A stretch of 10,856 nt of DNA from a virus (Duplodnaviria; Heunggongvirae; Uroviricota; Caudoviricetes): the IMG/VR virus record IMGVR_UViG_2695420523_000025, positions 1 through 10,856 of that record; one strand, given 5' to 3'. The position numbers were made by a program, and so were the translations under genes. Shown here one piece after another: positions 1-10,113 of the stretch (the stretch's first letter is position 1; every line of letters begins with the position of its first letter). The notes beneath the pieces were generated by a model that was given only the letters and a program-made list of their open reading frames with translations, ran no database searches and had not been told where the DNA came from.

Positions 1-861
1 CCTGTCCTGATTGATGTGAACGGCGTTCCGCTTCGTGAGAGTCTCAGCTACAACGGGGGCGGCGCAGGATTTGGCGGGCAAATGGCGGAGTGGTTGCCAC
101 CGGCGCAGAGTGTCGATGCGGCCCTGCTGCCCGCGTTGCGTCTGGGGAATGCCCGGGCAGATGATCTGGTGCGCAATAACGGAATAGCGGCTAATGCGGT
201 GGCCCTGCATAAGGATCACATTGTCGGGCATATGTTTCTGATCAGCTACCGTCTGAACTGGCGCTGGCTGGGGATGCGGGAGACCGCAGCAAAAAGCTTT
301 GTCGATGAGGTGGAGGCGGCCTGGTCGGAATACGCAGAAGGGATGTCTGGCGAGATCGACGTGGAAGGAAAACGCACATTTACGGAGTTTATCCGTGAAG
401 GTGTTGGCGTTCATGCGTTTAACGGCGAAATCTTTGTGCAGCCGGTCTGGGATACGGAAACCACGCAGTTATTCCGTACGCGTTTTAAAGCCGTGAGTCC
501 GAAACGGGTGGACACGCCAGGACACGGTATGGGGAACCGTTTTCTGCGGGCCGGGGTGGAGGTCGATCGATATGGCCGTGCCGTTGCGTACCATATCTGT
601 GAGGATGATTTTCCGTTCTCCGGGAGTGGACGATGGGAACGGATCCCGCGTGAACTTCCCACCGGGCGTCCGGCCATGCTGCATATTTTCGAGCCGGTGG
701 AGGACGGGCAGACCCGTGGGGCCAATCAGTTTTACAGCGTCATGGAACGGCTGAAGATGCTCGATTCCCTGCAGGCAACACAGCTTCAGTCGGCCATAGT
801 GAAGGCGATTTATGTCTATCATCTCACCGTAGTTGCCCGCATCGTTCGCCAACTCCACTGA
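1..861 (+). CDS. Phage portal protein, lambda gpB family; 5' end lies off-window and the 3' part appears replaced near nt 813, so likely a disrupted gene
   Basis: The frame is open from nt 1 (GTG at 16 is only the first start the ORF finder met). The translation carries blocks I recognise from lambda-family portals: YNGGGAGFGGQ, SVDAALLP, GNARADDLVRNNG, HKDHIVG, FEPVEDGQTRGANQFYSVME, TQLQSAIVKA. Recognisable similarity ends about 15 codons before the stop. Lambda-family portals are about 500-530 aa, whereas this ORF would be about 300 aa. Confidence 0.8.
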   Translation, partial: PVLIDVNGVPLRESLSYNGGGAGFGGQMAEWLPPAQSVDAALLPALRLGNARADDLVRNNGIAANAVALHKDHIVGHMFLISYRLNWRWLGMRETAAKSFVDEVEAAWSEYAEGMSGEIDVEGKRTFTEFIREGVGVHAFNGEIFVQPVWDTETTQLFRTRFKAVSPKRVDTPGHGMGNRFLRAGVEVDRYGRAVAYHICEDDFPFSGSGRWERIPRELPTGRPAMLHIFEPVEDGQTRGANQFYSVMERLKMLDSLQATQLQSAIVKAIYVYHLTVVARIVRQLH

Positions 862-937
862 AACCCTTGCTGCGTCTGGAATGTCGTTTTCCATGCTTTT
901 GATGACCGTTCATCACCCTTCCAGTTTTTCGCGGTTT

Positions 938-991
938 TGTGTATTGCAATGTGTATTGCAAATTGGCGATCGGGATGGGTGTGTATTGCAA
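938..991 (+). repeat. Three direct copies of TGTGTATTGCAA (938-949, 950-961, 980-991) just upstream of int; candidate integrase arm-type or autoregulatory sites within the att arm
   Basis: Three exact 12-bp copies read directly, two in tandem and a third 18 bp later, ending 19 bp before the int start codon. Confidence 0.55.
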
Positions 992-1009
992 ATCTCTTGA
1001 GGGCTTTTA

Positions 1010-2251
1010 ATGGCTATTGAAAACAAACTCAGTGACAAACTGTTAAAGAGTCTTGTCGGAAAACGGCAGGACAAACAAAAAACAATAGCGGATGGGCGCG
1101 GGTTGTCTGTGCGTGTAAGCATGGTTGGGGGGATCAGCTTTGTTTTTTACTATCGTCTTGGTGGCAGGGAATCCCCTCCGGTATGGCTTACACTTGGTCG
1201 CTATCCTGACATGTCTCTTGCAACGGCTAGGCGCATGCGTGATCAGTGCCGTGAATGGCTGGCTGAAAATCTGGACCCCCGCAGGCAAATAAAACTTGCT
1301 GCCGAAAAAACTATGCAACCAGTGACCGTAAGGGATGCGCTGTTTTACTGGTACGACAATCACGCCACAACAGCCAGAAAAGAGCATGAATATTTAATAA
1401 AACGATTTGAAAAGCATATCTTCCCCTATATCGGTGATATGGCTATAGAACAGTGCAAATTACACACATGGCTTACCGTCTTTGACAGGATCAAAAAAAA
1501 TGCGCCTGTTATGTCTGGTGCAATTTTTCTTGATATCAAACAGGCGTTGCGTTTTTGTCGCGTCAGGCAATACATCGCGTGCGATCCCTTTGGAGATATT
1601 AACGTAAGTTATGTCGGGCGCTCATCCGGTATAAGGGATCGCGTTCTTAATATCAATGAAACCGCTGATGTATGGTCTTATGCTTACGGTAATAATTTGC
1701 TAACTCTGTCATCAATATATAACCGAAGAATAATGGTTATCTGCCTGGTGTTTGGTTGCCGACAGCAGGAGGCGAGGCTATCCACCTGGGACGAATGGGA
1801 TTTAAAAAACTGGGTATGGACAGTCCCAAAAGAGCACAGCAAAAACAAGGAGGCTATAGTAAGGCCTGTTCCTGACGGAATAAAACAATGGATCGTTAAT
1901 CTTTACGCAGAAACAAAAAATCGCGGTTATGTTGTCGGTTGTGCTTTGCAAAGGGCGACAATAACAGGGGCTGCAAACAGAATATGCAGGCGTCTTGGTC
2001 ATGATACTAATGGCTTGTGGTGCATACATGATTTCAGGCGCACATTTTCCACTACGCTTAATGATATGGGGGCGGATCCTTATATTGTCGAACTTCTTTT
2101 AGGTCATAAAGTGAAAGGGGTTGCTGGTGTTTACAATAAAAGCAGGCATATAAAGAAAAAACTTGAGGTGCTTAATATGTGGGTTAATTACCTTAATACG
2201 ATAGCAGGATTTAACAACAACGTTATCGAGCTTAATAAAGAGGTGGTGTGA
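1010..2251 (+). CDS. int: Tyrosine site-specific integrase, P4-like family
   Basis: 413-aa ORF with RBS GAGGG about 7 nt upstream. N-terminal arm-binding-type region (GRGLSVRVSMVGGISFVFYYRLGG...LTLGRYPDMSLATAR). C-terminal catalytic region with HDFRRTF, LLGH and the tyrosine in GVYNKS. AT-richer than the portal fragment. Confidence 0.93.
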   Translation: MAIENKLSDKLLKSLVGKRQDKQKTIADGRGLSVRVSMVGGISFVFYYRLGGRESPPVWLTLGRYPDMSLATARRMRDQCREWLAENLDPRRQIKLAAEKTMQPVTVRDALFYWYDNHATTARKEHEYLIKRFEKHIFPYIGDMAIEQCKLHTWLTVFDRIKKNAPVMSGAIFLDIKQALRFCRVRQYIACDPFGDINVSYVGRSSGIRDRVLNINETADVWSYAYGNNLLTLSSIYNRRIMVICLVFGCRQQEARLSTWDEWDLKNWVWTVPKEHSKNKEAIVRPVPDGIKQWIVNLYAETKNRGYVVGCALQRATITGAANRICRRLGHDTNGLWCIHDFRRTFSTTLNDMGADPYIVELLLGHKVKGVAGVYNKSRHIKKKLEVLNMWVNYLNTIAGFNNNVIELNKEVV

Positions 2252-2252
2252 T

Positions 2253-2510
2253 ATGGCAATTTATTCTCTTGTTGATGAAAACGATTTGCGCACAATGAAG
2301 GACATTGATCGGTTCATTCGTGAAAAAGAGTGCATAGCACTTACCACGCTGGCAAACTCAACACGCTGGAAAATGGAGCAGGCAGGTAAATTCCCGCGAC
2401 GTATCAAGATCGGTGAACGTGCTGCAGGGTATCGACTTTCAGAGGTTCAGGCATGGATCCGTGGTGAGTGGCATCCTGGATGGAAACCTGGAAAAACAAA
2501 ACAGCAATAA
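2253..2510 (+). CDS. alpA: AlpA-family (Phage_AlpA) helix-turn-helix regulator / excisionase-like protein
   Basis: 85-aa ORF starting 1 nt after the int stop (TGAtATG) with RBS AAGAGGTGG. The core LTTLANSTRWKMEQAGKFPRRIKIGERAAGYRLSEVQAWI matches the AlpA/Xis pattern. Confidence 0.85.
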   Translation: MAIYSLVDENDLRTMKDIDRFIREKECIALTTLANSTRWKMEQAGKFPRRIKIGERAAGYRLSEVQAWIRGEWHPGWKPGKTKQQ

Positions 2511-2523
2511 CCAGTAAATAATG

Positions 2524-2546
2524 CCCCTCATCACGAGGGGTTTTTT
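2524..2546 (+). terminator. Intrinsic terminator closing the int-alpA unit
   Basis: Stem CCCCTC (2524-2529), loop ATCAC, stem GAGGGG (2535-2540), then TTTTTT (2541-2546). Confidence 0.65.
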
Positions 2547-2566
2547 GTCTATAAGGTAAAAACGCG

Positions 2567-3145
2567 ATGAATAAAAATATTGCCGTGACGGGCAAGGGGT
2601 ACGCTCGTCCAGTGAAAAAATTCTGCGATATTCGTGATCTCGTCGTTCTGCGCTTTGATAGTGTGAACGTTCGTGTGGTGTATCTGAACGGCGATCCGTG
2701 GTTTGTTGCAAAAGATGTTTGTGCTGCGCTGGAACTAACCAATTCGCGTACGGCGTTGCAGATGCTTGATGATGATGAAAAGGGAGTAAATTTAACTTAC
2801 ACCCCAGGAGGAAATCAGAATATGAGAATTATCTCTGAGTCAGGTTTCTACAAACTAATAGCCCGCAGCCGCAAAGCAACGACGCCTGGCACATTTGCTC
2901 ATCGTTTCAGTAACTGGGTATTCAGAAATGTGATACCAGGTATCAGAAAAACGGGGACTTATGGTATCCCGTGGGGTGCATTACAGGATTTTTCCCGCCG
3001 TAAAGAGCAATATCAAATAAGTGCCAGCGAGAAGGGGAGGGAGCTACAGGCATGTAAGCGCAAAAAGCGTGAGCTGGAGGAAGAAGAAAAAACGCTGATA
3101 CGTGAATATCAGCCTGAGTTTTACTTTGGTAACCGCATTCAGTGA
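2567..3145 (+). CDS. Bro-N domain protein (antirepressor-like) with a charged coiled-coil C-terminus
   Basis: 192-aa ORF. The core VVYLNGDPWFVAKDVCAALELTNSRTALQMLDDDEKG is typical of the Bro-N fold. C-terminal KRKKRELEEEEKTLIREYQ is predicted helical. It starts only 20 nt after the terminator T-tract, so its promoter is unclear. Confidence 0.7.
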   Translation: MNKNIAVTGKGYARPVKKFCDIRDLVVLRFDSVNVRVVYLNGDPWFVAKDVCAALELTNSRTALQMLDDDEKGVNLTYTPGGNQNMRIISESGFYKLIARSRKATTPGTFAHRFSNWVFRNVIPGIRKTGTYGIPWGALQDFSRRKEQYQISASEKGRELQACKRKKRELEEEEKTLIREYQPEFYFGNRIQ

Positions 3146-3154
3146 CAAAACAAA

Positions 3155-3175
3155 GGCGACCGCAAAAGGGTCGCC
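3155..3175. terminator. GC hairpin between the convergent Bro-N and minus-strand genes; possible terminator, better placed for minus-strand transcripts
   Basis: GGCGACC (3155-3161), loop of 7 nt, GGTCGCC (3169-3175). No T-run follows on the + strand; the minus strand reads TTTGTTTTG after the stem. Confidence 0.35.
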
Positions 3176-3241
3176 AGTGGGAACAAGGGAAAACAAAAGC
3201 ATCACCAACAATGCCACATTTGCGGCTGGTGGGCAATGTGA

Positions 3242-3421
3242 TCAGTCAGATTTGGTTCGTTCCAAGGTTTGCAACGAGAGCTTTTTCCTGTGCTCTTTAA
3301 GGAATTTCTCAAGAGCAAACGAACAAGGTGCGAATCTTTCTGATTCATGTTCATGCGCTATATTTTTGCGTCGTCTCTTACGAGTTGGTGATGGTGTTTT
3401 GGTTGATTCTGTGTCGCTCAT
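3242..3421 (-). CDS. Small basic hypothetical protein (59 aa), absent from the ORF track
   Basis: Manually translated from the minus strand: MSDTESTKTPSPTRKRRRKNIAHEHESERFAPCSFALEKFLKEHRKKLSLQTLERTKSD, with stop TGA at 3244-3242. AGGA lies 7 nt upstream of the ATG. It sits 57 nt downstream of the RHH-like gene on the same strand. Confidence 0.3.
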   Translation of the reverse strand: MSDTESTKTPSPTRKRRRKNIAHEHESERFAPCSFALEKFLKEHRKKLSLQTLERTKSD

Positions 3422-3478
3422 GGTGCTGTCCTGTAAAGCAATGCGCCTGCGTTCCTCAAACTATGGCGCTGATAGTGG

Positions 3479-3784
3479 CTATTCCTGCTCTTTGACCTTG
3501 CGTCGCTGGAGTTCTTCACGCGCGACGGTGACGAGTTGCCCGATCTCCTCGGCGGCTTTGACTCCGATTTTTTCCACCTGCGCTAGGGCATCGAGCGAAG
3601 AAACCAGGAGGTTTTCTCCGCTTCCTTCTGCCTGGCGGCGGGCGATTTCACCGCGCATGGCGGTTACTATGAATCCGGCGTTGCTTTCACCGTCCAGTTT
3701 TACGGATTCCATGCCTTCAATAACATCATGCGGGATCCGAGCTGTCAGTGATTGTGATTTTGCGTTTTTTGAACCTGTAGCCAT
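3479..3784 (-). CDS. Ribbon-helix-helix-like DNA-binding protein; candidate repressor of the divergent rightward operon
   Basis: The N-terminus KSQSLTARIPHDVIEGMESVKLDGESNAGFIVTAMRGEIARR has the RHH beta-strand plus two helices pattern, followed by a helical tail. I prefer the ATG at 3784 (RBS GAGAGGA 6 nt upstream) over the ORF-track TTG at 3799. It is divergent from a region with palindromic operator-like sites. Confidence 0.6.
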   Translation of the reverse strand: MATGSKNAKSQSLTARIPHDVIEGMESVKLDGESNAGFIVTAMRGEIARRQAEGSGENLLVSSLDALAQVEKIGVKAAEEIGQLVTVAREELQRRKVKEQE

Positions 3785-3805
3785 CTGTAATCCTCTCAAT
3801 GAAAG

Positions 3806-3900
3806 TGTAAGACAATATACACATAAAAAGTCTTACATAAAAGCATTGACATGTAAGCCACCTATAAATAAAGTTACTTACACCTTGTTAATACAAGGTG
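3806..3900. promoter_or_regulatory. Divergent promoter/operator region with TGTAAG/CTTACA half-sites, a sigma70-like rightward promoter and a 7-bp-stem palindrome
   Basis: Half-sites TGTAAG at 3806-3811 and 3852-3857, inverted partners CTTACA at 3832-3837 and 3877-3882. TTGACA at 3846-3851 with TAAAGT 17 bp downstream at 3869-3874 (rightward). On the minus strand TATATT is a candidate -10 for the RHH gene. Palindrome CACCTTG-N6-CAAGGTG at 3881-3900. Confidence 0.45.
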
Positions 3901-3980
3901 CAGAAACGACGAAACCCCGCACTGTAGGAGCAGTAACGGGGCTTCTAACCACCAACGATAGCAAGATTATCGAGGCAGCT

Positions 3981-4184
3981 ATGAGAAATTATACCATACA
4001 CCCGCAAGGGCGGGACTCGTACAACCTGAATAAATACATCTGGCGTTTTATCGCCCTGAGCACCGCACAACCGCGCGTGATTCACATCGTGGCCACCAGC
4101 GAACAGGAAGCACGCCAGCAATCCCCGGCTGGCTGCGTGATGGTATTCGCCGCCCGTATTCGTCAGGGGGTGTGCCATGCCTGA
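3981..4184 (+). CDS. Small hypothetical protein (67 aa), first gene of the rightward operon
   Basis: ATG at 3981 with GAGG 5 nt upstream, in frame with the stop at 4182-4184, which overlaps the start of the next gene by 8 nt. It is the only plausible part of the long low-complexity ORF 3102..4184. Confidence 0.45.
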   Translation: MRNYTIHPQGRDSYNLNKYIWRFIALSTAQPRVIHIVATSEQEARQQSPAGCVMVFAARIRQGVCHA

Positions 4185-4497
4185 TATGTCAAATTACCAG
4201 TACCTGATTAATCCGCATTTTAACTGTGAGCATGATATTGCTAAAAAGGTTTATTCCGCTGCTGATGGGGCTACTGACAATATATCAATGGCTGTTGCGT
4301 CAATTGGTAGCCTGATGTGGCATGCGTCAGAAAATGAGGACTATGACGAAAAGGCCATGCGCATTGATATGGGTAATATCGGTTTGTTACTGGCAATGCT
4401 TGGGCAGTTTGATATTTCGTTACGGTGCACCATTGAAAATGCCACAGATGCATTAAATGCCATAAAGAAAGCGAATACTGATTCAAATCGGGGATAA
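4177..4497 (+). CDS. Hypothetical protein (106 aa)
   Basis: ATG at 4177 with RBS AGGGGG 6 nt upstream. Overlaps the preceding stop. No recognisable motif. Confidence 0.6.
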   Translation: MPDMSNYQYLINPHFNCEHDIAKKVYSAADGATDNISMAVASIGSLMWHASENEDYDEKAMRIDMGNIGLLLAMLGQFDISLRCTIENATDALNAIKKANTDSNRG

Positions 4498-4503
4498 ATA
4501 ATC

Positions 4504-4803
4504 ATGAGAACATATTTATCTGGCTTGACTGCCAGCGGTTATGCACACCCCAAAATTATCCCCGGCGCTATTTATCTGGATAAGAACGGTAACAGAGTAA
4601 CGGTAAAAGAGCTGATGTTTGACCGTGTGTATTTTATTCGTGATGGCTATTCATTTCATAGTTCGCTGAACGTGGAGATCTTTATTAGCAGATTCAGGCG
4701 GGAAATCCCGCTTTCCAGAAAAAACCATGTGTCACGTGTGAATGTGGATAAAAAACTACAGGAACTGAAAAACATGATTGCCGCGTGGAGAGAGCAGAAA
4801 TGA
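4504..4803 (+). CDS. Hypothetical protein (99 aa)
   Basis: ATG at 4504, 7 nt after the previous stop. Its stop TGA (4801-4803) overlaps the primase ATG (4800-4802). No recognisable motif. Confidence 0.6.
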   Translation: MRTYLSGLTASGYAHPKIIPGAIYLDKNGNRVTVKELMFDRVYFIRDGYSFHSSLNVEIFISRFRREIPLSRKNHVSRVNVDKKLQELKNMIAAWREQK

Positions 4804-6617
4804 AAAAAGCGCCAAATTTAAAACACCAGCCGCGTGACAAAATGACGGAAGTCATCATTTTTGCGGGTAGTGATGCGTGGGCACATGCGAAGCAGTGGCA
4901 GGAACAGGACGGGCGACTGGCTGGCGATAACGTGCCTCCTGTCTGGCTTGGAGAGCAACAACTTGCCGAACTGGACAACCTGCAAATCGTACCGGACGGA
5001 CGCTATCGCGTGCGTCTCTATCAGGCGGGGTTATTGCGTCCGGGGCTTGTTAATACCATCGGGCAGAAACTGGCAGCGGCAGGTGTCAGGGATGCTGATT
5101 ATTACTCTGAAGGAATGCACAGCCAGAAACGGGAGAACTGGCGCGAATATCTGGAACGTGAACGGGCAGAGCTGGCGGAAAAGAAAAAGGTAGTTGAACT
5201 GCCTGTAAAGAAAAAAGAGCGGGTAAAAGACGATAACGCTTCATCACTGGCGCTTAACCAGATGGGAGCAAGTCAACGCGGCGAAGTTCTCCTGGCACAT
5301 TATGGCGGTGAACTGGCGATTCATGCTGACTCTGACACTGTTCACCATTACAACGGCGTTGTATGGGAGCCAGTACAGGATAAAGAATTACAGCGAGCTA
5401 TGGCACAGATTTTCATTGATGCGGAGATCAGCTATTCGCAGAACGCCATTAAATCGGCGGTCGATACCATGAAGTTAAGTTTGCCTGTTATGGGGAATAC
5501 AGCCCGTAACCTGATTGGATTCAGTAACGGGGTATTTGATACCAGAACAGGTAATTTTCGGGAGCATAACAAAAACGACTGGTTGTTAATTGCCAGTGAA
5601 TTACCTTTCAGCCCACCAGCAGAGGGGGAAACGCTGGCAACACATGCGCCGAATTTCTGGAAGTGGTTACGCCGTTCGGTGGCTGAGAATGACCGCAAGG
5701 CGGATCGCGTACTGGCTGCATTATTCATGGTGCTGGCGAACCGGTACGACTGGCAGTTATTCATTGAGGTAACAGGTCCAGGGGGAAGTGGTAAAAGCGT
5801 GATGGCGGAGATTTGCACCATGCTGGCGGGTAAGGCCAACACAGTATCGGCAAGCATGAAGGCGCTGGAAGATGCAAGGGAACGCGCGTTAGTGGTTGGC
5901 TTTTCGCTGATTATCATGCCGGATATGACCCGCTACGCTGGTGATGGGGCAGGAATTAAGGCCATTACAGGCGGTGACAAGGTGGCAATTGACCCGAAAC
6001 ACAAAGCCCCCTACTCAACGCGTATTCCGGCAGTAGTGCTGGCGGTTAACAATAACGCCATGTCATTCAGTGACCGCAGCGGGGGGATCTCACGTCGTCG
6101 GGTGATATTCAATTTTTCGGAAGTTGTACCGGAGAACGAACGCGATCCAATGCTGGCGGAAAAAATAGAAGGTGAGCTGGCGGTAGTGATTCGCCATCTG
6201 CTTACACGGTTTGCTGACCAGGACGAAGCCAGACGCCTGTTATATGAGCAGCAGAAATCTGAAGAAGCACTGGCGATAAAGCGAGAGGGGGATTCGCTGG
6301 TGGACTTCTGCGGCTATCTCATGGCGTCGGTAATGTGTGATGGCCTGTTAGTGGGTAATGCTGAAATTGTGCCATTCAGCCCACGCAGGTATCTCTATCA
6401 TGCCTATCTGGCTTATATGAGGGCACATGGGTTTGGTAAACCTGTAACACTGACGCGCTTCGGTAAAGATATGCCGGGGGCAATGGCGGAATATGGCAGG
6501 GAGTATATGAAACGGAAAACGAAGCACGGTTTGCGTTCAAACGTGACACTGACGGAGGAATCAGAAGACTGGATGCCATCATGTGTATCGGTCACTAATG
6601 ACGATAGCAAAAATTAA
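4800..6617 (+). CDS. Replication primase/helicase, P4 alpha-like (N-terminal primase-type region plus SF3/D5-type NTPase)
   Basis: Long ORF with Walker A GPGGSGKS and a downstream hydrophobic stretch ending in D (SLIIMPDM, Walker B-like). Start taken at ATG 4800 (RBS GGAGAGAG), but GTG 4785 and ATG 4842 are alternatives. An iteron array follows immediately. Confidence 0.9.
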   Translation: MKKAPNLKHQPRDKMTEVIIFAGSDAWAHAKQWQEQDGRLAGDNVPPVWLGEQQLAELDNLQIVPDGRYRVRLYQAGLLRPGLVNTIGQKLAAAGVRDADYYSEGMHSQKRENWREYLERERAELAEKKKVVELPVKKKERVKDDNASSLALNQMGASQRGEVLLAHYGGELAIHADSDTVHHYNGVVWEPVQDKELQRAMAQIFIDAEISYSQNAIKSAVDTMKLSLPVMGNTARNLIGFSNGVFDTRTGNFREHNKNDWLLIASELPFSPPAEGETLATHAPNFWKWLRRSVAENDRKADRVLAALFMVLANRYDWQLFIEVTGPGGSGKSVMAEICTMLAGKANTVSASMKALEDARERALVVGFSLIIMPDMTRYAGDGAGIKAITGGDKVAIDPKHKAPYSTRIPAVVLAVNNNAMSFSDRSGGISRRRVIFNFSEVVPENERDPMLAEKIEGELAVVIRHLLTRFADQDEARRLLYEQQKSEEALAIKREGDSLVDFCGYLMASVMCDGLLVGNAEIVPFSPRRYLYHAYLAYMRAHGFGKPVTLTRFGKDMPGAMAEYGREYMKRKTKHGLRSNVTLTEESEDWMPSCVSVTNDDSKN

Positions 6618-6630
6618 ACTTATGGAATAA

Positions 6631-6853
6631 CTGTTCACCACTGTTCACCCTGTCATAAATATCTTTTGTATCAGTATGTTATAGGGTGAACAGTTATTTA
6701 TGAACTGTTCACCAAACTATTCACTGTTCACCTTTTTGATTGTTTATTGAGCTTCAAGGGTGAACAGTGGTGAACAGTTGGTGAATAGTTTTTGTGAAAC
6801 TGTTCACCCCTTAACATTATGAATAAAAAGTTAAAATATCAAAAGGTGAACAG
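6631..6853. repeat. Iteron array, putative origin of replication of the element
   Basis: Exact CTGTTCACC at 6631, 6641, 6705, 6724 and 6800. Exact inverse GGTGAACAG at 6685, 6759, 6769 and 6845. Degenerate GGTGAATAG at 6780. Tandem copies have 10-11 bp periodicity. Two inverted pairs have 11-bp AT-rich spacers (6685-6713 and 6780-6808). The surroundings are AT-rich and directly downstream of the primase gene. Confidence 0.75.
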
Positions 6854-6904
6854 GTGAAGGGTTAAAACGCAAAAATTTTAATTTACTGCTGTGAGATAAA
6901 GCCT

Positions 6905-7150
6905 ATGACAGCGAAGCACACAAAAAAATCACAATCGCACGCCCTTGATTTGACGGAACACTGGTTAAGGGTGTCGATAAAAATCATCGACCGCAACGCC
7001 GGGGAAGGATATGCGAAAGCACATCCCGAACTGATTAGCTCATTCATGACAACGGCAGCTGCAAACTTTGCCACGCTGACAGAACGGGAGATTGCCGAAG
7101 CGGAACAGGTGACAACCATCAACGTTAAAACCGGAGAGCAGACAGCATGA
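6905..7150 (+). CDS. Hypothetical protein (81 aa), translationally coupled to the SSB-like gene
   Basis: ATG at 6905. Its stop TGA (7148-7150) overlaps the downstream ATG (7147-7149). No recognisable motif. Confidence 0.55.
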   Translation: MTAKHTKKSQSHALDLTEHWLRVSIKIIDRNAGEGYAKAHPELISSFMTTAAANFATLTEREIAEAEQVTTINVKTGEQTA

Positions 7151-7569
7151 CAGCACAGATAGCGGCTTACGGGCGGCTGGTGGCTGACCCGCAGTTAAAG
7201 ACCACCAGCAAGGGTACACAAATGACGATGGCGAGTATGGCGGTCCCACTTCCGTGCAGCCAGGCAGATGACGGAACGGCGACGATGTGGTTATCCGTCC
7301 TGGCGTTTGGCAGACAGGCCGAAGCACTGGCAAAGCACCGCAAGGGTGAACTCCTGAGCGTGGCGGGTAACATGCAGGTGAGCCAGTGGACCGGACAGAA
7401 CGGGGAGACGCGGCAGGGCTGGCAGGTTATCGCAGACAGCGTAATCAGTGCGAGAACGGCGCGACCGGGCGGCAAAAAAGGCCAACAGGGGCAGGCTACT
7501 GATGCACTGAGCAGAGCAAAACAACAGGCGGGAAATGATGATCCGTACGGGGATAACATACCGTTTTAA
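7147..7569 (+). CDS. ssb: Single-stranded DNA-binding protein (SSB family) with acidic C-terminal tip ending IPF
   Basis: 140-aa OB-fold-like N-terminus (IAAYGRLVADPQLK...WLSVLAFGRQAEALAKHRKGELLSVAGNMQVSQWTGQNGETRQGWQVIADSV) that parallels E. coli SSB block by block. Gly/Gln-rich linker. C-terminus DDPYGDNIPF compared with SSB DFDDDIPF. Confidence 0.8.
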   Translation: MTAQIAAYGRLVADPQLKTTSKGTQMTMASMAVPLPCSQADDGTATMWLSVLAFGRQAEALAKHRKGELLSVAGNMQVSQWTGQNGETRQGWQVIADSVISARTARPGGKKGQQGQATDALSRAKQQAGNDDPYGDNIPF

Positions 7570-7993: not shown

Positions 7994-8203
7994 GTGAGTT
8001 GTATTAATGACCTGAACACGGGCGATATCAGGGGTGGTTCCGTTCATCTGGATGCGCAGACCGTTATGCGCCTTAAGCAGTACAGGATCGACCATATAAA
8101 TCATCATCCTGACAAACCATTACCAGGTGTGGCGCAGATTGTCAGGCATGCCGTAAACGCCTGGCTTAATCAGAGTGGTTTTGCATCGGAGAGTGAGCAA
8201 TGA
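7994..8203 (+). CDS. Small hypothetical protein (69 aa), translationally coupled to the protease-capsid gene
   Basis: GTG start with strong RBS AAGAGGAAG 7 nt upstream. Its stop TGA (8201-8203) overlaps the ATG at 8200-8202. A weak RHH-like pattern (MRLKQYRIDH...VAQIVRHAVNAWL) is not conclusive. Confidence 0.5.
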   Translation: MSCINDLNTGDIRGGSVHLDAQTVMRLKQYRIDHINHHPDKPLPGVAQIVRHAVNAWLNQSGFASESEQ

Positions 8204-10113
8204 ATCACTGGTACACCATTAAGGCGGCGGATGTTCGCGGAGCGGCGGATATATCTATCTATGAGGAGATTGGCGGCTTCGGTGTTACTGCAAAGCAGTT
8301 CGCGGAAGACCTGAAAGCCCTTGGCGATGTTTCACATATCAATCTGAGGATCCATTCACCAGGTGGTGATGTGTTTGAAGGCATCGCCATCTATAACCTG
8401 CTACGGAATCATCCGGCAGACATTACGGTTTATATCGATGGTGTTGCGGCTTCAATGGCTTCGGTTGTCGCAATGGCTGGCGATCGTGTTGTTATGCCGG
8501 AGAACGCCATGATGATGATCCATAAACCGTGGGGTATCTCTGGCGGAAATGCTGGCGATATGCGTGATTATGCTGATTTGCTGGATAAGGTGGAAACCGT
8601 GTTAATCCCTGCTTATGCCAGAAAAACGGGCAAATCAGCACAGGAAATTACCGCCATGCTGGAGGATGAAACCTGGATGGATGGGAAAGAATGCCTTAAG
8701 CACGGTTTTGCTGATGAATTGTTGCCATCCGTCAGAGCAATGGCGCGAATTGAATCGAAACGCACAGGAGATTTTTTACATATGCCGGAAACCATTAAAG
8801 GAATGATTACACCGCCACAGGGAGCGGCAAATATTGCTGGTAATGAACAGAAGCGCATCAATGGAATAAGTGAAGTGTTTAGCTTGTTCGGCAGTCGTTA
8901 CGACGGGATCAAAATGGCGTGTCTGGAAGATGCATCATGTACACCGGAAATGGCCCGTGAAAAGCTGTTGAACGAGCTGGGGCGCGAGTCCACGCCATCC
9001 AATAAAAATACCCCGCCTCATATCTATGCCGGAAACGGAAACATAACAGGTGATGCAATTCGTCAGGGGCTTTATTCCCGTCTTGGGTATGAACGCCCTG
9101 AACGAGGCAACCCTTACGCGATGATGAGCCTTTTTGAAATGGCCCAGGCATCACTGGTTGATCGTGGTATCACTGTGAGCGGTTTTATTAATCGCTCGCA
9201 GGTTGTTAATGCGGCTTTTACACACAGCAGCAGCGATTTTTCTCATATTCTGGCTGGTGGCGCTGAAAAATCAGTACTGAAAGGCTGGCAGGACAGCGGC
9301 GAAACGTTCCAGAAATGGACGCGTACCGGTTCGCTTTCAAACTTTCATGAAGCAAAGCGCGTTGGTCTGAATGGTTTTTCAAAGCTGGATAAAGTACCGG
9401 AAGGCGCGGAATATAAATACATCACCACTAGCGATAAAGGTGTACCTATTGCGCTGGCCACGTACGGGAATATTTTTTCCGTTACCCGTCAGGCCATTAT
9501 CAACGATGACCTGACCCAGTTAACTACAATCCCCATGGCGATGGGACGCGCAGCTGCCAGAACAGTTGGCAATCTGGTTTATCTCCTGTTAACCAGCAAC
9601 GGCAAGTTTACGGATGGTAAAGCGTTATTCCATGCCGATCATAAAAATCTTATTGCGAAGGATATGGACATGGAGGGGCTTAACGAAGCCCGTAAGCTGA
9701 TGCGCCTCCAGGAAGACGCTAACGGCGATTCGCTGAATATTACCCCCGCATTTGTCCTGGTCCCCGCCGCGCTGGAGTCTGCCGCACATCGCGCCATTCT
9801 GTCATCGTCATCACTCTTTCCGGTTGATGGCGTGGGCACTATCAATCAGAACCCCGGCATCATTAACGTGGTGAAAGATATGGCGGAGGTAATCGTTGAG
9901 CCACGTCTTGATAAAGCCAATAACAAGGAGTGGTATGTGGCAGCGGCGAAGGGTATGGACACGATAGAGGTCGCTTATCTTGATGGTATTGATACGCCAT
10001 ATCTTGAGGAGCAGGAGGGCTTTACTGTTGATGGCGTCGCCTGGAAGGTGCGCATAGATGCAGGTGTCGCGGCCCTCGACTATCGCGGATTACTGAAATC
10101 GAGTGGAGCATGA
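8200..10113 (+). CDS. Fusion protein: N-terminal ClpP-like (S14-type) prohead serine protease joined to a C-terminal putative major capsid domain
   Basis: N-terminal 200 aa carry ClpP signatures HSPGGDVFEGIAIYNLL, catalytic-serine context GVAASMASVVAMAGD and histidine context MMMIHKPWG. The remaining roughly 430 aa have the size and position expected of a scaffold plus capsid region. The capsid assignment is from context and general resemblance, not a verified alignment. Confidence 0.8.
   Translation: MNHWYTIKAADVRGAADISIYEEIGGFGVTAKQFAEDLKALGDVSHINLRIHSPGGDVFEGIAIYNLLRNHPADITVYIDGVAASMASVVAMAGDRVVMPENAMMMIHKPWGISGGNAGDMRDYADLLDKVETVLIPAYARKTGKSAQEITAMLEDETWMDGKECLKHGFADELLPSVRAMARIESKRTGDFLHMPETIKGMITPPQGAANIAGNEQKRINGISEVFSLFGSRYDGIKMACLEDASCTPEMAREKLLNELGRESTPSNKNTPPHIYAGNGNITGDAIRQGLYSRLGYERPERGNPYAMMSLFEMAQASLVDRGITVSGFINRSQVVNAAFTHSSSDFSHILAGGAEKSVLKGWQDSGETFQKWTRTGSLSNFHEAKRVGLNGFSKLDKVPEGAEYKYITTSDKGVPIALATYGNIFSVTRQAIINDDLTQLTTIPMAMGRAAARTVGNLVYLLLTSNGKFTDGKALFHADHKNLIAKDMDMEGLNEARKLMRLQEDANGDSLNITPAFVLVPAALESAAHRAILSSSSLFPVDGVGTINQNPGIINVVKDMAEVIVEPRLDKANNKEWYVAAAKGMDTIEVAYLDGIDTPYLEEQEGFTVDGVAWKVRIDAGVAALDYRGLLKSSGA

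What the first reader, a model, noticed from the sequence alone, without database searches (positions are those of the whole stretch)
3981..4803. Three small unknown genes translationally coupled to the primase
Proteins of 67, 106 and 99 aa with overlapping or near-abutting start and stop codons (8-nt overlap at 4177, ATGA at 4800) form the front of the replication operon, and I recognise none of them. In satellites this position often holds helper-sensing, derepression or interference functions, so these are the best candidates here for new activities.
Basis: partly seen in the sequence, partly recalled or inferred. Interest (0 to 1): 0.5.

Follow-up and report, generated by a model that had tools for sequence, protein, structure and literature searches.

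The report
Small genes heading a satellite's replication operon
The three small genes are real and conserved: the first is a homologue of the phage P1 cell-division inhibitor Icd, the second fills a swappable slot of tiny unknown proteins, and the third (DUF4222) is a small beta-barrel protein found directly upstream of replication-initiator genes, so this is an ordinary but uncharacterised part of E. coli phage satellites.

Summary
ORFs 3981-4184 (67 aa), 4177-4497 (106 aa) and 4504-4803 (99 aa) exist, with an 8-nt overlap, a 6-nt gap and an ATGA overlap with the primase gene at 4800.

All three are annotated identically in RefSeq. They stay intact in 46-64 distinct variants and are under purifying selection (dN/dS 0.32-0.42).

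The window is a Gram-negative PICI-type satellite of E. coli, embedded in a lambdoid prophage portal gene.

- **ORF1** is not unknown. It is a homologue of phage P1 Icd (NF033153, E 5e-20; 37% identity to P1 Icd).
- **ORF3** is Pfam DUF4222, a small beta-barrel plus a C-terminal helix.
- **ORF2** is an orphan helical protein, with only 16 representatives among 1.8 billion proteins.

Across 88 related islands the layout is fixed: Icd-like, then 1-5 unrelated small ORFs, then DUF4222, then a replicase. The DUF4222-replicase overlap is -4 nt in 85 of 87 cases, whichever replicase family follows. In two of three lambdoid phages checked, unannotated DUF4222 ORFs also overlap the replication-initiator gene.

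The best reading is a promoter-proximal, translationally chained cassette with three parts: a host division inhibitor, a variable accessory slot and an initiator-linked adaptor. Function is inferred, not shown.

Interest is moderate. These are known families in a known kind of element.

The parts
3479..3799 (-). Divergently transcribed YlcI/YnfO-family gene (106 aa). It is a candidate repressor of the operon promoter; this is inferred.
   Evidence: NF041551, E 5.6e-20. Its N-terminal sequence variant matches the operator-core variant one-to-one in every operator group where a YlcI/YnfO ORF was recovered. Physical linkage could also explain that match.
3805..3883 (.). Operator-like repeats around the promoter: GTGTAAGAC 3805-3813, GTCTTACA 3830-3837, TGTAAGCCAC 3852-3861 and CTTACAC 3877-3883.
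   Evidence: Read from the sequence. In other islands the same three positions carry a different, island-specific core within GTG-N5/6-CAC (alignment A1).
3846..3874 (+). Sigma-70-type promoter-like site: TTGACA, 17 nt, TAAAGT.
   Evidence: Promoter scan, 10/12 match. The -35 hexamer TTGAC is invariant in alignment A1.
3881..3975 (+). Structured 5' leader. It has a variable 5' hairpin (3881-3900), a conserved hairpin 1 (3914-3942), a near-invariant single-stranded stretch CUUCUAACCACCAACG (3942-3957), and hairpin 2 (3956-3972), which abuts the Shine-Dalgarno GAGG (3972-3975).
   Evidence: RNAfold gives -29.5 kcal/mol, z -3.27. On 22 distinct sequences, 87.6% of cells pair, against 29-44% when partners are slid. 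Nine of 15 pairs change on both sides, and 0 of 500 shuffles reach the observed values for percentage paired, pairs and cells changed on both sides, and the covariation score; 'further pair types' was reached by 63 of 500. No Rfam family matches, including C4 and isrK.
3981..4184 (+). ORF1, 67 aa: Icd-like protein, a homologue of the phage P1 cell-division inhibitor.
   Evidence: NF033153, 71.2 bits against a cut-off of 25. BLASTP to P1 Icd: 37% identity over 43 aa, E 5e-7. P1 Icd hits the same model. ORF1 is 85-93% identical between islands whose other genes differ. dN/dS 0.42.
4177..4497 (+). ORF2, 106 aa: an orphan, predicted all-helical protein that occupies the variable slot.
   Evidence: No Pfam, NCBIfam or PADLOC hit; it matches only phrog_15327, of unknown function. 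There are 16 representatives in 1.84e9 proteins. Distant homologues sit in the same slot of other PICI-like islands. dN/dS 0.33, with 52/52 variants intact.
4504..4803 (+). ORF3, 99 aa: DUF4222 protein, a small beta-barrel (residues ~21-66) plus a C-terminal helix (78-98).
4800..6617 (+). P4/D5-family primase-helicase (605 aa), the last cistron of the chain.
   Evidence: D5_N, DUF5906, Pox_D5 and TIGR01613; phrog_864, DNA primase. Its N-terminal ~110 aa is shared with RepA-type replicases of sister islands.
6629..6863 (.). Iteron field (about 11 copies of GGTGAACAG in both orientations): the probable replication origin.
   Evidence: Repeat search. An origin downstream of pri is described for EcCICFT073 (PMC6092414).

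Best explanation
The three genes are the promoter-proximal cistrons of the early (replication) operon of a Gram-negative PICI-type phage satellite.

**Transcription and translation.** Transcription starts at the promoter at 3846-3874. That promoter is flanked by island-specific operator repeats next to a divergent YlcI/YnfO gene, which is a candidate repressor. The transcript begins with a conserved structured leader. Ribosomes then read ORF1, ORF2, ORF3 and the primase gene as a chain of overlapping or abutting cistrons.

**The three products appear to do three different jobs.**
1. ORF1 is a homologue of phage P1 Icd. When the island is induced it most likely blocks host cell division. As in the P1 icd-ant operon, its translation probably also feeds translation of the next cistron.
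2. ORF2 is one alternative occupant of a variable slot of small, mostly helical proteins. These are most likely accessory proteins that bind a host, helper-phage or competitor protein.
3. ORF3 (DUF4222) is a small beta-barrel adaptor. It travels with replication-initiator genes and most likely works with, or tunes production of, the replicase.

**Shown:** gene reality, family membership, operon layout, conservation, leader structure and fold class.
**Inferred:** every biochemical activity, the repressor role of YlcI/YnfO, and actual translational coupling.
For: **The element.** The window carries int, AlpA, Bro-N, a primase with iterons, SSB and a capsid-protease fusion. Sister islands are annotated the same way, including the prototype EcCICFT073.

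**Layout.** In 88 gene chains from IMG/VR and E. coli loci the order is always Icd-like, then 1-5 small ORFs, then DUF4222, then a replicase.
- Icd to the next gene: overlapping in 82/87.
- Gap before DUF4222: +5 or +6 nt in 79/87.
- DUF4222 to the replicase: -4 nt in 85/87.

**ORF1.** It hits NF033153 and is similar to P1 Icd. The GenBank record of P1 describes Icd as an inhibitor of cell division that is required for ant expression, and icd overlaps ant1 by 4 nt. A preprint reports that an Icd-like protein in a six-gene 'prophage' locus with a primase is the likely effector of growth arrest in ECOR61 (10.1101/2023.04.06.535777).

**ORF2.** The slot holds families F3, F4a-c, F5/F8 and F7, which are unrelated by profile comparison. 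Distant ORF2 relatives keep the same slot.

**ORF3.**
- It sits upstream of P4-type primases, DUF927 proteins and RepA/AAA_25 helicases alike.
- In all three lambdoid or Klebsiella phages checked, an unannotated DUF4222 ORF lies in the early-right region near the replication genes. In two of them it overlaps the start of the initiator gene.
- The fold is a barrel plus a helix and shows no catalytic features.

**Selection.** dN/dS is 0.32-0.42.
Against: - No activity was tested here, and none is published for these PICI genes in the papers searched.
- P1 Icd similarity covers only about 43 residues. The C4 antisense RNA that controls icd in P1 is absent from the window.
- In EcCICFT073, the rep gene plus ori under an arabinose promoter was enough for plasmid replication (PMC6092414). 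DUF4222 is therefore probably not essential for replication, although the construct boundaries are not stated.
- DUF4222 is missing from two more distant islands that have an ORF2-like gene (L168, L171), so the pairing with replicases is not universal.
- Every cistron has its own Shine-Dalgarno-like sequence, so overlap alone does not prove coupling.
- The match between YlcI/YnfO variant and operator core may simply reflect physical linkage.
Confidence: 0.6

Rival explanations
1. The small genes, above all ORF2 and the other slot occupants, are helper-directed functions: helper sensing, prophage derepression, interference with helper reproduction, or anti-defence. Phage P4 places epsilon just upstream of its primase gene in the same way.
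For: The slot between Icd-like and DUF4222 is filled by at least six mutually unrelated families, in 1-5 copies. That pattern is typical of arms-race accessory genes. The ORF2 family is very narrow, with 16 representatives in 1.84e9 proteins, and is confined to this slot in all four kinds of island examined. The EcCICFT073 genes responsible for interference with lambda were still unidentified in 2018 (PMC6092414).
Against: ORF2 has no similarity to P4 epsilon, to any known antirepressor or to any PADLOC defence model. It is tightly linked to one DUF4222 subtype (49/50), which could instead mean a partnership with the replication end of the operon. No functional data exist. This reading does not conflict with the best explanation for ORF2. 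It is a rival only for ORF1 and ORF3.
Confidence: 0.3
2. The cassette is an abortive-infection or superinfection-exclusion device. A phage protein triggers the locus, and the Icd-like protein then stops growth of the infected cell, as reported for a six-gene locus with a primase in E. coli ECOR61.
For: [quoted passage not shown] The operon here also has six linked genes: Icd-like, ORF2, DUF4222, primase, an 81-aa ORF and SSB.
Against: I could not establish that the ECOR61 locus is the same as this operon. Their Icd-like protein has a 'long N-terminal extension'. In sister islands such an extension coincides with Rfam C4 and c4-a1b1 RNA elements, and the window lacks them. The reconstituted effect was described as muted. 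Growth arrest could also be a by-product of satellite induction rather than a dedicated defence.
Confidence: 0.2
3. The small ORFs matter mainly as translated spacers. They would form a relay of coupled reading frames that passes control exerted at the leader or first ribosome-binding site down to the replicase, like tap-repA in plasmid R1 or icd-ant in P1. The proteins themselves would be of little importance.
For: Stop-start overlaps are almost universal. The number and identity of the middle ORFs vary freely while the chain is kept. In P1, icd translation is required for ant expression. The conserved leader sits immediately before the first Shine-Dalgarno sequence.
Against: All three proteins are under purifying selection (dN/dS 0.32-0.42). 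ORF1 is 85-93% identical across otherwise divergent islands. DUF4222 has a confidently predicted fold and 15 invariant residues across sequences 30-40% identical to it. ORF2 relatives at 26-40% identity keep a motif. Each cistron has its own Shine-Dalgarno-like sequence.
Confidence: 0.1

Closest known systems
Phage P1 immI operon (c4 antisense RNA, icd, ant1/ant2)
   Same: ORF1 is a sequence homologue of P1 Icd. In both systems icd is a small first cistron whose stop overlaps the start of the next gene: 4 nt in P1 and 8 nt here. Sister PICIs carry genuine C4, c4-a1b1 and isrK RNA elements directly upstream of their Icd-like ORFs.
   Different: The window has no C4 RNA. Instead it has a different leader of conserved hairpins. 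The downstream genes are not an antirepressor but small ORFs and a primase. The operon sits next to a divergent YlcI/YnfO gene rather than a C1 operator.
EcCICFT073 and other Gram-negative PICIs (Fillol-Salom et al. 2018, PMC6092414), including helper-embedded PICIs (PMC10111431)
   Same: The module order is the same: int, alpA, (Bro), then a YlcI/YnfO gene on the opposite strand, then Icd-like, small ORFs, DUF4222, primase, ori and SSB, followed by late genes. The island interrupts a prophage late gene in the same orientation.
   Different: EcCICFT073 has four small ORFs of other families where the window has ORF2, and a DUF4222 only 33% identical. The published work examined int, alpA, pri-rep, c1499 and c1500. 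It did not examine these small genes.
Phage P4 left operon (cI RNA, kil/eta, cII, epsilon, orf151, alpha primase)
   Same: A satellite early operon in which several small genes precede a P4-family primase-helicase, with immunity exerted at the leader. Icd-like genes are also annotated in P4-like elements (PMC13612085).
   Different: ORF2 and ORF3 show no detectable homology to epsilon, cII or orf151. No CI/C4-type RNA is present.
Leader-peptide coupling in plasmid replication control (R1 tap-repA with CopA RNA)
   Same: A short upstream ORF overlaps the replication-initiator gene, so that initiator synthesis depends on upstream translation. This comparison rests on my own knowledge of the R1 system.
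   Different: Here the upstream product is a conserved, folded 99-aa protein under purifying selection, and no antisense RNA was found.
Tudor/SH3/KOW-type small beta-barrels (UvrD/PcrA C-terminal domain, CarD N-terminal domain, Spt5 KOW, FeoA)
   Different: Sequence identity is 8-15% and no single family stands out. The C-terminal helix is not shared. This is fold-class resemblance only, not membership.

Membership tests
Icd-like proteins (NCBIfam NF033153; prototype phage P1 Icd) | Scores above the curated cut-off of the family model | tested here: met
   71.2 bits against a cut-off of 25, E 5.5e-20, residues 19-62. P1 Icd itself scores 52.6 bits.
Icd-like proteins (NCBIfam NF033153; prototype phage P1 Icd) | Direct pairwise similarity to P1 Icd | tested here: met
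   BLASTP: 37% identity over 43 aa, E 5e-7. The shared motif is IWRF...A(T/S)E.EAR.Q.P.G...F.AR.
Icd-like proteins (NCBIfam NF033153; prototype phage P1 Icd) | First small cistron whose stop overlaps the start of the next gene | tested here: met
   8-nt overlap at 4177-4184. P1 icd and ant1 overlap by 4 nt. The overlap is present in 82/87 related islands.
Icd-like proteins (NCBIfam NF033153; prototype phage P1 Icd) | Inhibits host cell division when expressed | not testable with these tools
   Known for P1 Icd only (annotation).
C4 antisense RNA immunity module (Rfam RF01695, RF03163, RF01394) | A C4/isrK RNA and a/b target sites upstream of icd | tested here: not met
   No match in the window at E up to 1, nor in 3780-4200 at E up to 10. 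The same models score 72-75 bits in the sister islands L130, L157, L044 and L057.
DUF4222 (Pfam PF13973) | Scores above the Pfam gathering threshold | tested here: met
   61.1 bits against 27, E 7.3e-17, residues 16-67. Also phrog_285.
Gram-negative PICI (phage-inducible chromosomal island) | Co-oriented int, alpA and pri genes, an origin downstream of pri, a size of about 10-15 kb, and few or no structural or lysis genes | tested here: met
   int 1010-2251, AlpA 2253-2510, primase 4800-6617, iterons 6629-6863, with only a capsid-protease fusion and a DUF1441 gene downstream. Sister islands are about 10 kb.
Gram-negative PICI (phage-inducible chromosomal island) | Induced and packaged by a helper phage | not testable with these tools
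   Shown for EcCICFT073 in PMC6092414, not for this island.
Helper-embedded PICI (PMC10111431) | Integrated inside, and co-oriented with, a prophage late gene | tested here: inconclusive
   The window starts with the N-terminal half of a lambda-type portal ORF (16-861, + strand) that breaks off just before int. I identified it as a portal by eye, from memory of the lambda B protein, not with a tool. A sister island sits inside a terminase gene. The right junction lies outside the window.
Known replication accessory proteins (helicase loaders, DnaT/DnaD-type, SSB) | Sequence or fold match of ORF1-3 to such a family | tested here: not met
Known anti-phage defence proteins (PADLOC-DB) | Match to a defence-system model | tested here: not met
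   Only one weak ORF1 hit, E 0.024. ORF2 and ORF3 have none.

The most novel reading that the evidence does not exclude
DUF4222 may be a previously unrecognised, general partner of replication initiators in temperate phages and satellites. It would be a Tudor/SH3-like adaptor, made in step with the initiator through stop-start overlap, that links unrelated initiator types (P4 primase-helicase, DUF927, RepA/AAA_25, lambda-O/DnaD-like) to a common host target such as RNA polymerase or the replicative helicase.

Alongside it, the Icd-like protein and the variable small proteins may form a module that halts the host cell and answers to helper or competitor phages.
Probability: 0.2. Interest if true: 0.65.

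Novelty: new member of a known kind. Interest (0 to 1): 0.4.

Why it matters
About a third of complete E. coli genomes (1,664-1,821 of 5,426) carry DNA similar to this region. Yet none of the small genes between the regulatory region and the replicase of Gram-negative PICIs has a tested function.

Sorting them into three classes tells experimenters which gene to test for what:
- a conserved Icd homologue;
- a swappable accessory slot;
- an initiator-linked DUF4222.

If Icd-like proteins arrest division on induction, they would account for part of the cost of these satellites and for their effects on phage infection. If DUF4222 acts with initiators, the finding would extend to lambdoid phages, where the gene is often not even annotated.

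Two side observations bear on the open question of how Gram-negative PICIs are kept silent. One is a structured leader in the place where P1 has the C4 RNA. The other is operator cores that change together with the neighbouring YlcI/YnfO protein.

Tried and rejected
- **C4/isrK RNA upstream of ORF1.** Rejected for the window, although present in sister islands.
- **An antisense partner for the invariant leader stretch CUAACCACCAACG.** No complementary site exists elsewhere in the window beyond chance.
- **A longer ORF1 starting upstream (360-aa frame from 3102).** Rejected. It crosses the promoter and the opposite-strand gene, and the stretch before 3981 covaries as RNA stems.
- **ORF2 as a repeat unit of large TPR or Ig-repeat proteins** (P0058, P0059, P0063). 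Judged spurious: inflated multi-repeat scores, unrelated architectures, and only weak TPR hints in the PDB.
- **All slot proteins as diverged paralogues of one family.** Rejected by profile-profile comparison. Only F5~F8 and F7 short~long are related.
- **Single-sequence structure prediction of ORF2.** It gave an unusable model (pLDDT 43), so no fold search was made for it.
- **The afdb50 fold library.** Unavailable.
- **GenBank phages.** tBLASTn finds no relative of ORF2 or of the window's ORF3, and only one relative of ORF1, in a 16.5-kb 'phage' that I did not examine further.
- **Literature.** Searches found no functional study of DUF4222, YlcI/YnfO or PICI Icd-like genes.
Full report
**1. 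The observation**

The window sequence and the ORF list show three ORFs on the + strand: 3981-4184 (67 aa), 4177-4497 (106 aa) and 4504-4803 (99 aa). A 605-aa primase gene starts at 4800.

There is an 8-nt overlap (ATGCCTGA, 4177-4184), a 6-nt gap and an ATGA overlap at 4800-4803. Each start codon is preceded by a purine-rich Shine-Dalgarno-like run.

An E. coli RefSeq chromosome that is 100% identical over 3400-5000 annotates the same three CDSs, as 'host cell division inhibitor Icd-like protein', 'hypothetical protein' and 'DUF4222 domain-containing protein'.

I collected related loci and compared their nucleotide variants:

| ORF | Distinct variants intact | dN/dS |
|---|---|---|
| ORF1 | 64 of 70 | 0.42 |
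| ORF2 | 52 of 52 | 0.33 |
| ORF3 | 46 of 46 | 0.32 |

Variable sites are most numerous at third codon positions. These are genes, not chance frames.

The mechanical ORF list extends ORF1 to a GTG at 3102. That extension runs antisense through a gene and across the promoter, so I reject it (see section 5).

**2. What the window is**

Family scans give the following layout:

| Coordinates | Strand | Feature |
|---|---|---|
| 1010-2251 | + | Integrase |
| 2253-2510 | + | AlpA |
| 2567-3145 | + | Bro-N protein |
| 3479-3799 | - | YlcI/YnfO-family gene |
| 3981-4803 | + | The three small ORFs |
| 4800-6617 | + | P4/D5-family primase-helicase |
| 6905-7150 | + | 81-aa ORF |
| 7147-7569 | + | SSB |
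| 8200-10113 | + | ClpP-capsid fusion |
| from 10284 | + | DUF1441 protein |

About 11 copies of GGTGAACAG lie at 6629-6863, where an origin is expected.

This is the organisation of Gram-negative phage-inducible chromosomal islands (PICIs) (PMC6092414; PMC10111431). The prototype EcCICFT073 has the same order.

The window begins with what reads as the N-terminal half of a lambda-type portal gene, broken off just before int (identified by eye, not with a tool). A sister island interrupts a prophage terminase gene. This matches the 'helper-embedded PICI' configuration.

**3. What each gene is**

*ORF1.* It hits the curated Icd-like model NF033153 (71 bits against a cut-off of 25). It aligns with phage P1 Icd at 37% identity over 43 residues (E 5e-7), and P1 Icd hits the same model. 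The P1 record describes Icd as an inhibitor of cell division that is required for expression of ant, and icd overlaps ant1 by 4 nt. ORF1 is 85-93% identical between islands whose DUF4222 proteins are only 31-34% identical.

*ORF2.* It has no Pfam, NCBIfam or PADLOC hit and matches only phrog_15327, of unknown function.
- An exhaustive HMMER scan of 1.84 billion representatives found 16 proteins. Apart from fragments and spurious repeat-protein hits, these are a handful of proteins of about 100 aa with 27-66% identity.
- Three of these relatives were traced to contigs. Each lies in a PICI-like island, in the cluster of small ORFs between an Icd-like gene or small upstream ORF and a replicase.
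- A single-sequence structure model was of low confidence and all-helical.

*ORF3.* It is Pfam DUF4222 (61 bits against 27).
- With a 51-sequence alignment, AlphaFold2 gives a small beta-barrel (residues ~21-66, pLDDT about 90) followed by a long C-terminal helix.
- The viral structure library returns only uncharacterised or DUF1653 proteins.

**4. The conserved architecture**

I walked the genes downstream of every Icd-like match in about 165 loci from IMG/VR and E. coli genomes, which gave 88 complete chains. Apart from one spurious-seed chain in L103, the order is Icd-like (66-68 aa), then one to five small ORFs, then DUF4222 (about 99 aa), then a replicase. After a gap of 200-290 nt come an 81-92-aa ORF and SSB.

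The replicase can be a P4-type primase (about 582-605 aa), a DUF927 protein (about 707 aa) or a RepA-type helicase (about 465-471 aa). All of them share the first ~110 residues.

Junction distances are nearly fixed:

| Junction | Distance | Count |
|---|---|---|
| Icd-like to next gene | overlapping | 82 of 87 |
| Gene before DUF4222 to DUF4222 | +5 or +6 nt | 79 of 87 |
| DUF4222 to replicase | -4 nt | 85 of 87 |

The middle genes fall into families that are mutually unrelated by profile-profile comparison (F3 = ORF2, F4a-c, F5/F8, F7).

ORF2 is almost always followed by the window's subtype of DUF4222 (49 of 50 cases). The other DUF4222 subtype follows families F5, F8 or F7.

In three temperate phages (mEp460, an Stx2a phage and a Klebsiella phage) I found unannotated 59-84-aa ORFs that hit DUF4222 at E 1e-15 to 1e-19. 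They lie in the early-right region near the replication genes. In two of the three they overlap the start of the replication-initiator gene.

**5. Regulation upstream**

The only strong promoter-like site on the + strand is TTGACA-17-TAAAGT at 3846-3874. No promoter-like or terminator-like site follows on that strand before 6617.

The promoter is flanked by repeats with an island-specific core: TGTAAG/CTTACA in the window and other cores in other islands. The core type matches the N-terminal variant of the divergent YlcI/YnfO protein one-to-one in every operator group where such an ORF was recovered. This fits a repressor-operator pair, but physical linkage could explain it as well.

The 5' leader folds into hairpins (z -3.3). 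On 22 distinct sequences, hairpin 1 (3914-3942) and hairpin 2 (3956-3972, abutting the Shine-Dalgarno sequence) pair in 87.6% of cells, against 29-44% when partners are slid. Nine of 15 pairs change on both sides, and 0 of 500 shuffles reach the observed values for percentage paired, pairs and cells changed on both sides, and the covariation score.

No Rfam family matches the leader. Some sister islands instead carry genuine C4, c4-a1b1 and isrK elements directly upstream of their Icd-like ORFs. In those islands the C4 and a1b1 elements lie inside a 153-155-aa 'Icd-like protein with N-terminal extension'. Such extensions are therefore probably annotation artefacts that read through an RNA gene.

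**6. How it most likely works**

*Shown:* a single promoter-proximal chain of four cistrons, membership of ORF1 and ORF3 in their families, conservation, and the fold class of ORF3.

*Inferred:*
- On induction the operon is transcribed and translated as a chain.
- ORF1 arrests host division as P1 Icd does, and its translation feeds the next cistron.
- ORF2 is an exchangeable accessory protein.
- ORF3 is an adaptor that acts with the replicase or sets its level.

A preprint reports that an Icd-like gene in a six-gene locus with a primase is the likely effector of phage-triggered growth arrest in ECOR61. This is consistent with a toxic or arresting role. I could not verify that the locus is the same.

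There are points against an essential replication role for ORF3. In EcCICFT073, rep plus ori alone supported plasmid replication. Two distant islands with ORF2-like genes also lack DUF4222.

**7. Comparison with what is known, and novelty**

The closest systems are the P1 c4-icd-ant operon, the small-ORF cluster of EcCICFT073 (not studied in the papers I read) and the P4 left operon.

ORF1 and ORF3 are members of described families. ORF2 belongs to an undescribed but tiny family. The element is a known kind. I therefore rate the finding as a new member of a known kind, with moderate interest.

What I could add is the following:
- the fixed bookend layout of the operon;
- the link between DUF4222 and initiator genes, including in phages;
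- the non-C4 structured leader;
- the covariation between YlcI/YnfO variants and operator cores.

All functions remain to be tested.

Noticed in passing
window 16-861 (and L002 6360-7352): The island is inserted in, and co-oriented with, what reads as the N-terminal half of a lambda-type portal gene of a prophage. I identified it as a portal by eye, not with a tool. A sister island interrupts a prophage terminase large-subunit gene. This is the helper-embedded PICI configuration of PMC10111431.
   Followed up: partly
window 3479-3799 (-) with 3805-3883: The divergent YlcI/YnfO-family protein changes its N-terminal sequence in step with the core of the operator-like repeats around the promoter (1:1 in every operator group where a YlcI/YnfO ORF was recovered). 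It is therefore a candidate for the master repressor that has not been identified in Gram-negative PICIs. Physical linkage could also explain the match.
   Followed up: partly
window 3881-3975: A conserved structured 5' leader: two hairpins with compensatory changes and a near-invariant stretch CUUCUAACCACCAACG. It sits where P1 and some sister PICIs have the C4 antisense RNA. It matches no Rfam family, and its role is unknown.
   Followed up: partly
L130 3141-3605; also L044, L057, L157: Some islands carry a second 'Icd-like' ORF of 153-155 aa. Its N-terminal two-thirds coincide with Rfam c4-a1b1 and C4 elements. The 'long N-terminal extension' of Icd-like proteins in annotations is therefore probably read-through of an RNA gene. 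RefSeq also annotates N-terminally extended Icd-like CDSs in CFT073, 97-3250 and strain 3908; those in CFT073 and 97-3250 overlap the YlcI/YnfO gene.
   Followed up: partly
window 4800-5220 (primase residues 1-140): The N-terminal ~110-140 residues of the primase have no Pfam domain. They are shared by P4-type, DUF927 and RepA-type replicases of sister islands (start MKxAPNxK...IIFAGxDAW). This looks like a mobile N-terminal module that travels with DUF4222.
   Followed up: no
window 6629-6863: A dense field of about 11 GGTGAACAG/CTGTTCACC iterons in both orientations between the primase gene and the next ORF. It is the probable origin, and it caused spurious weak microRNA hits in the Rfam scan.
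   Followed up: partly
L174 (NZ_CP148328.1, whole record): A complete E. coli genome lists a 10,790-bp circular 'plasmid' that is a PICI of this type (int, HTH regulator, YlcI/YnfO, Icd-like, ORF2, DUF4222, primase, capsid fusion, DUF1441). This suggests an excised or episomal form was assembled.
   Followed up: no
L175 3438-3692; L176 3480-3659; L177 3480-3659: Lambdoid and Klebsiella temperate phage records have unannotated DUF4222 ORFs (59-84 aa). In two of them another frame or the opposite strand is annotated instead. In L175 and L177 the ORFs overlap the start of the replication-initiator gene.
   Followed up: partly
L006 9733-10230: One sister island encodes a ProQ/FinO-family RNA chaperone downstream of SSB. 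This may be relevant to RNA-based control of these islands.
   Followed up: no
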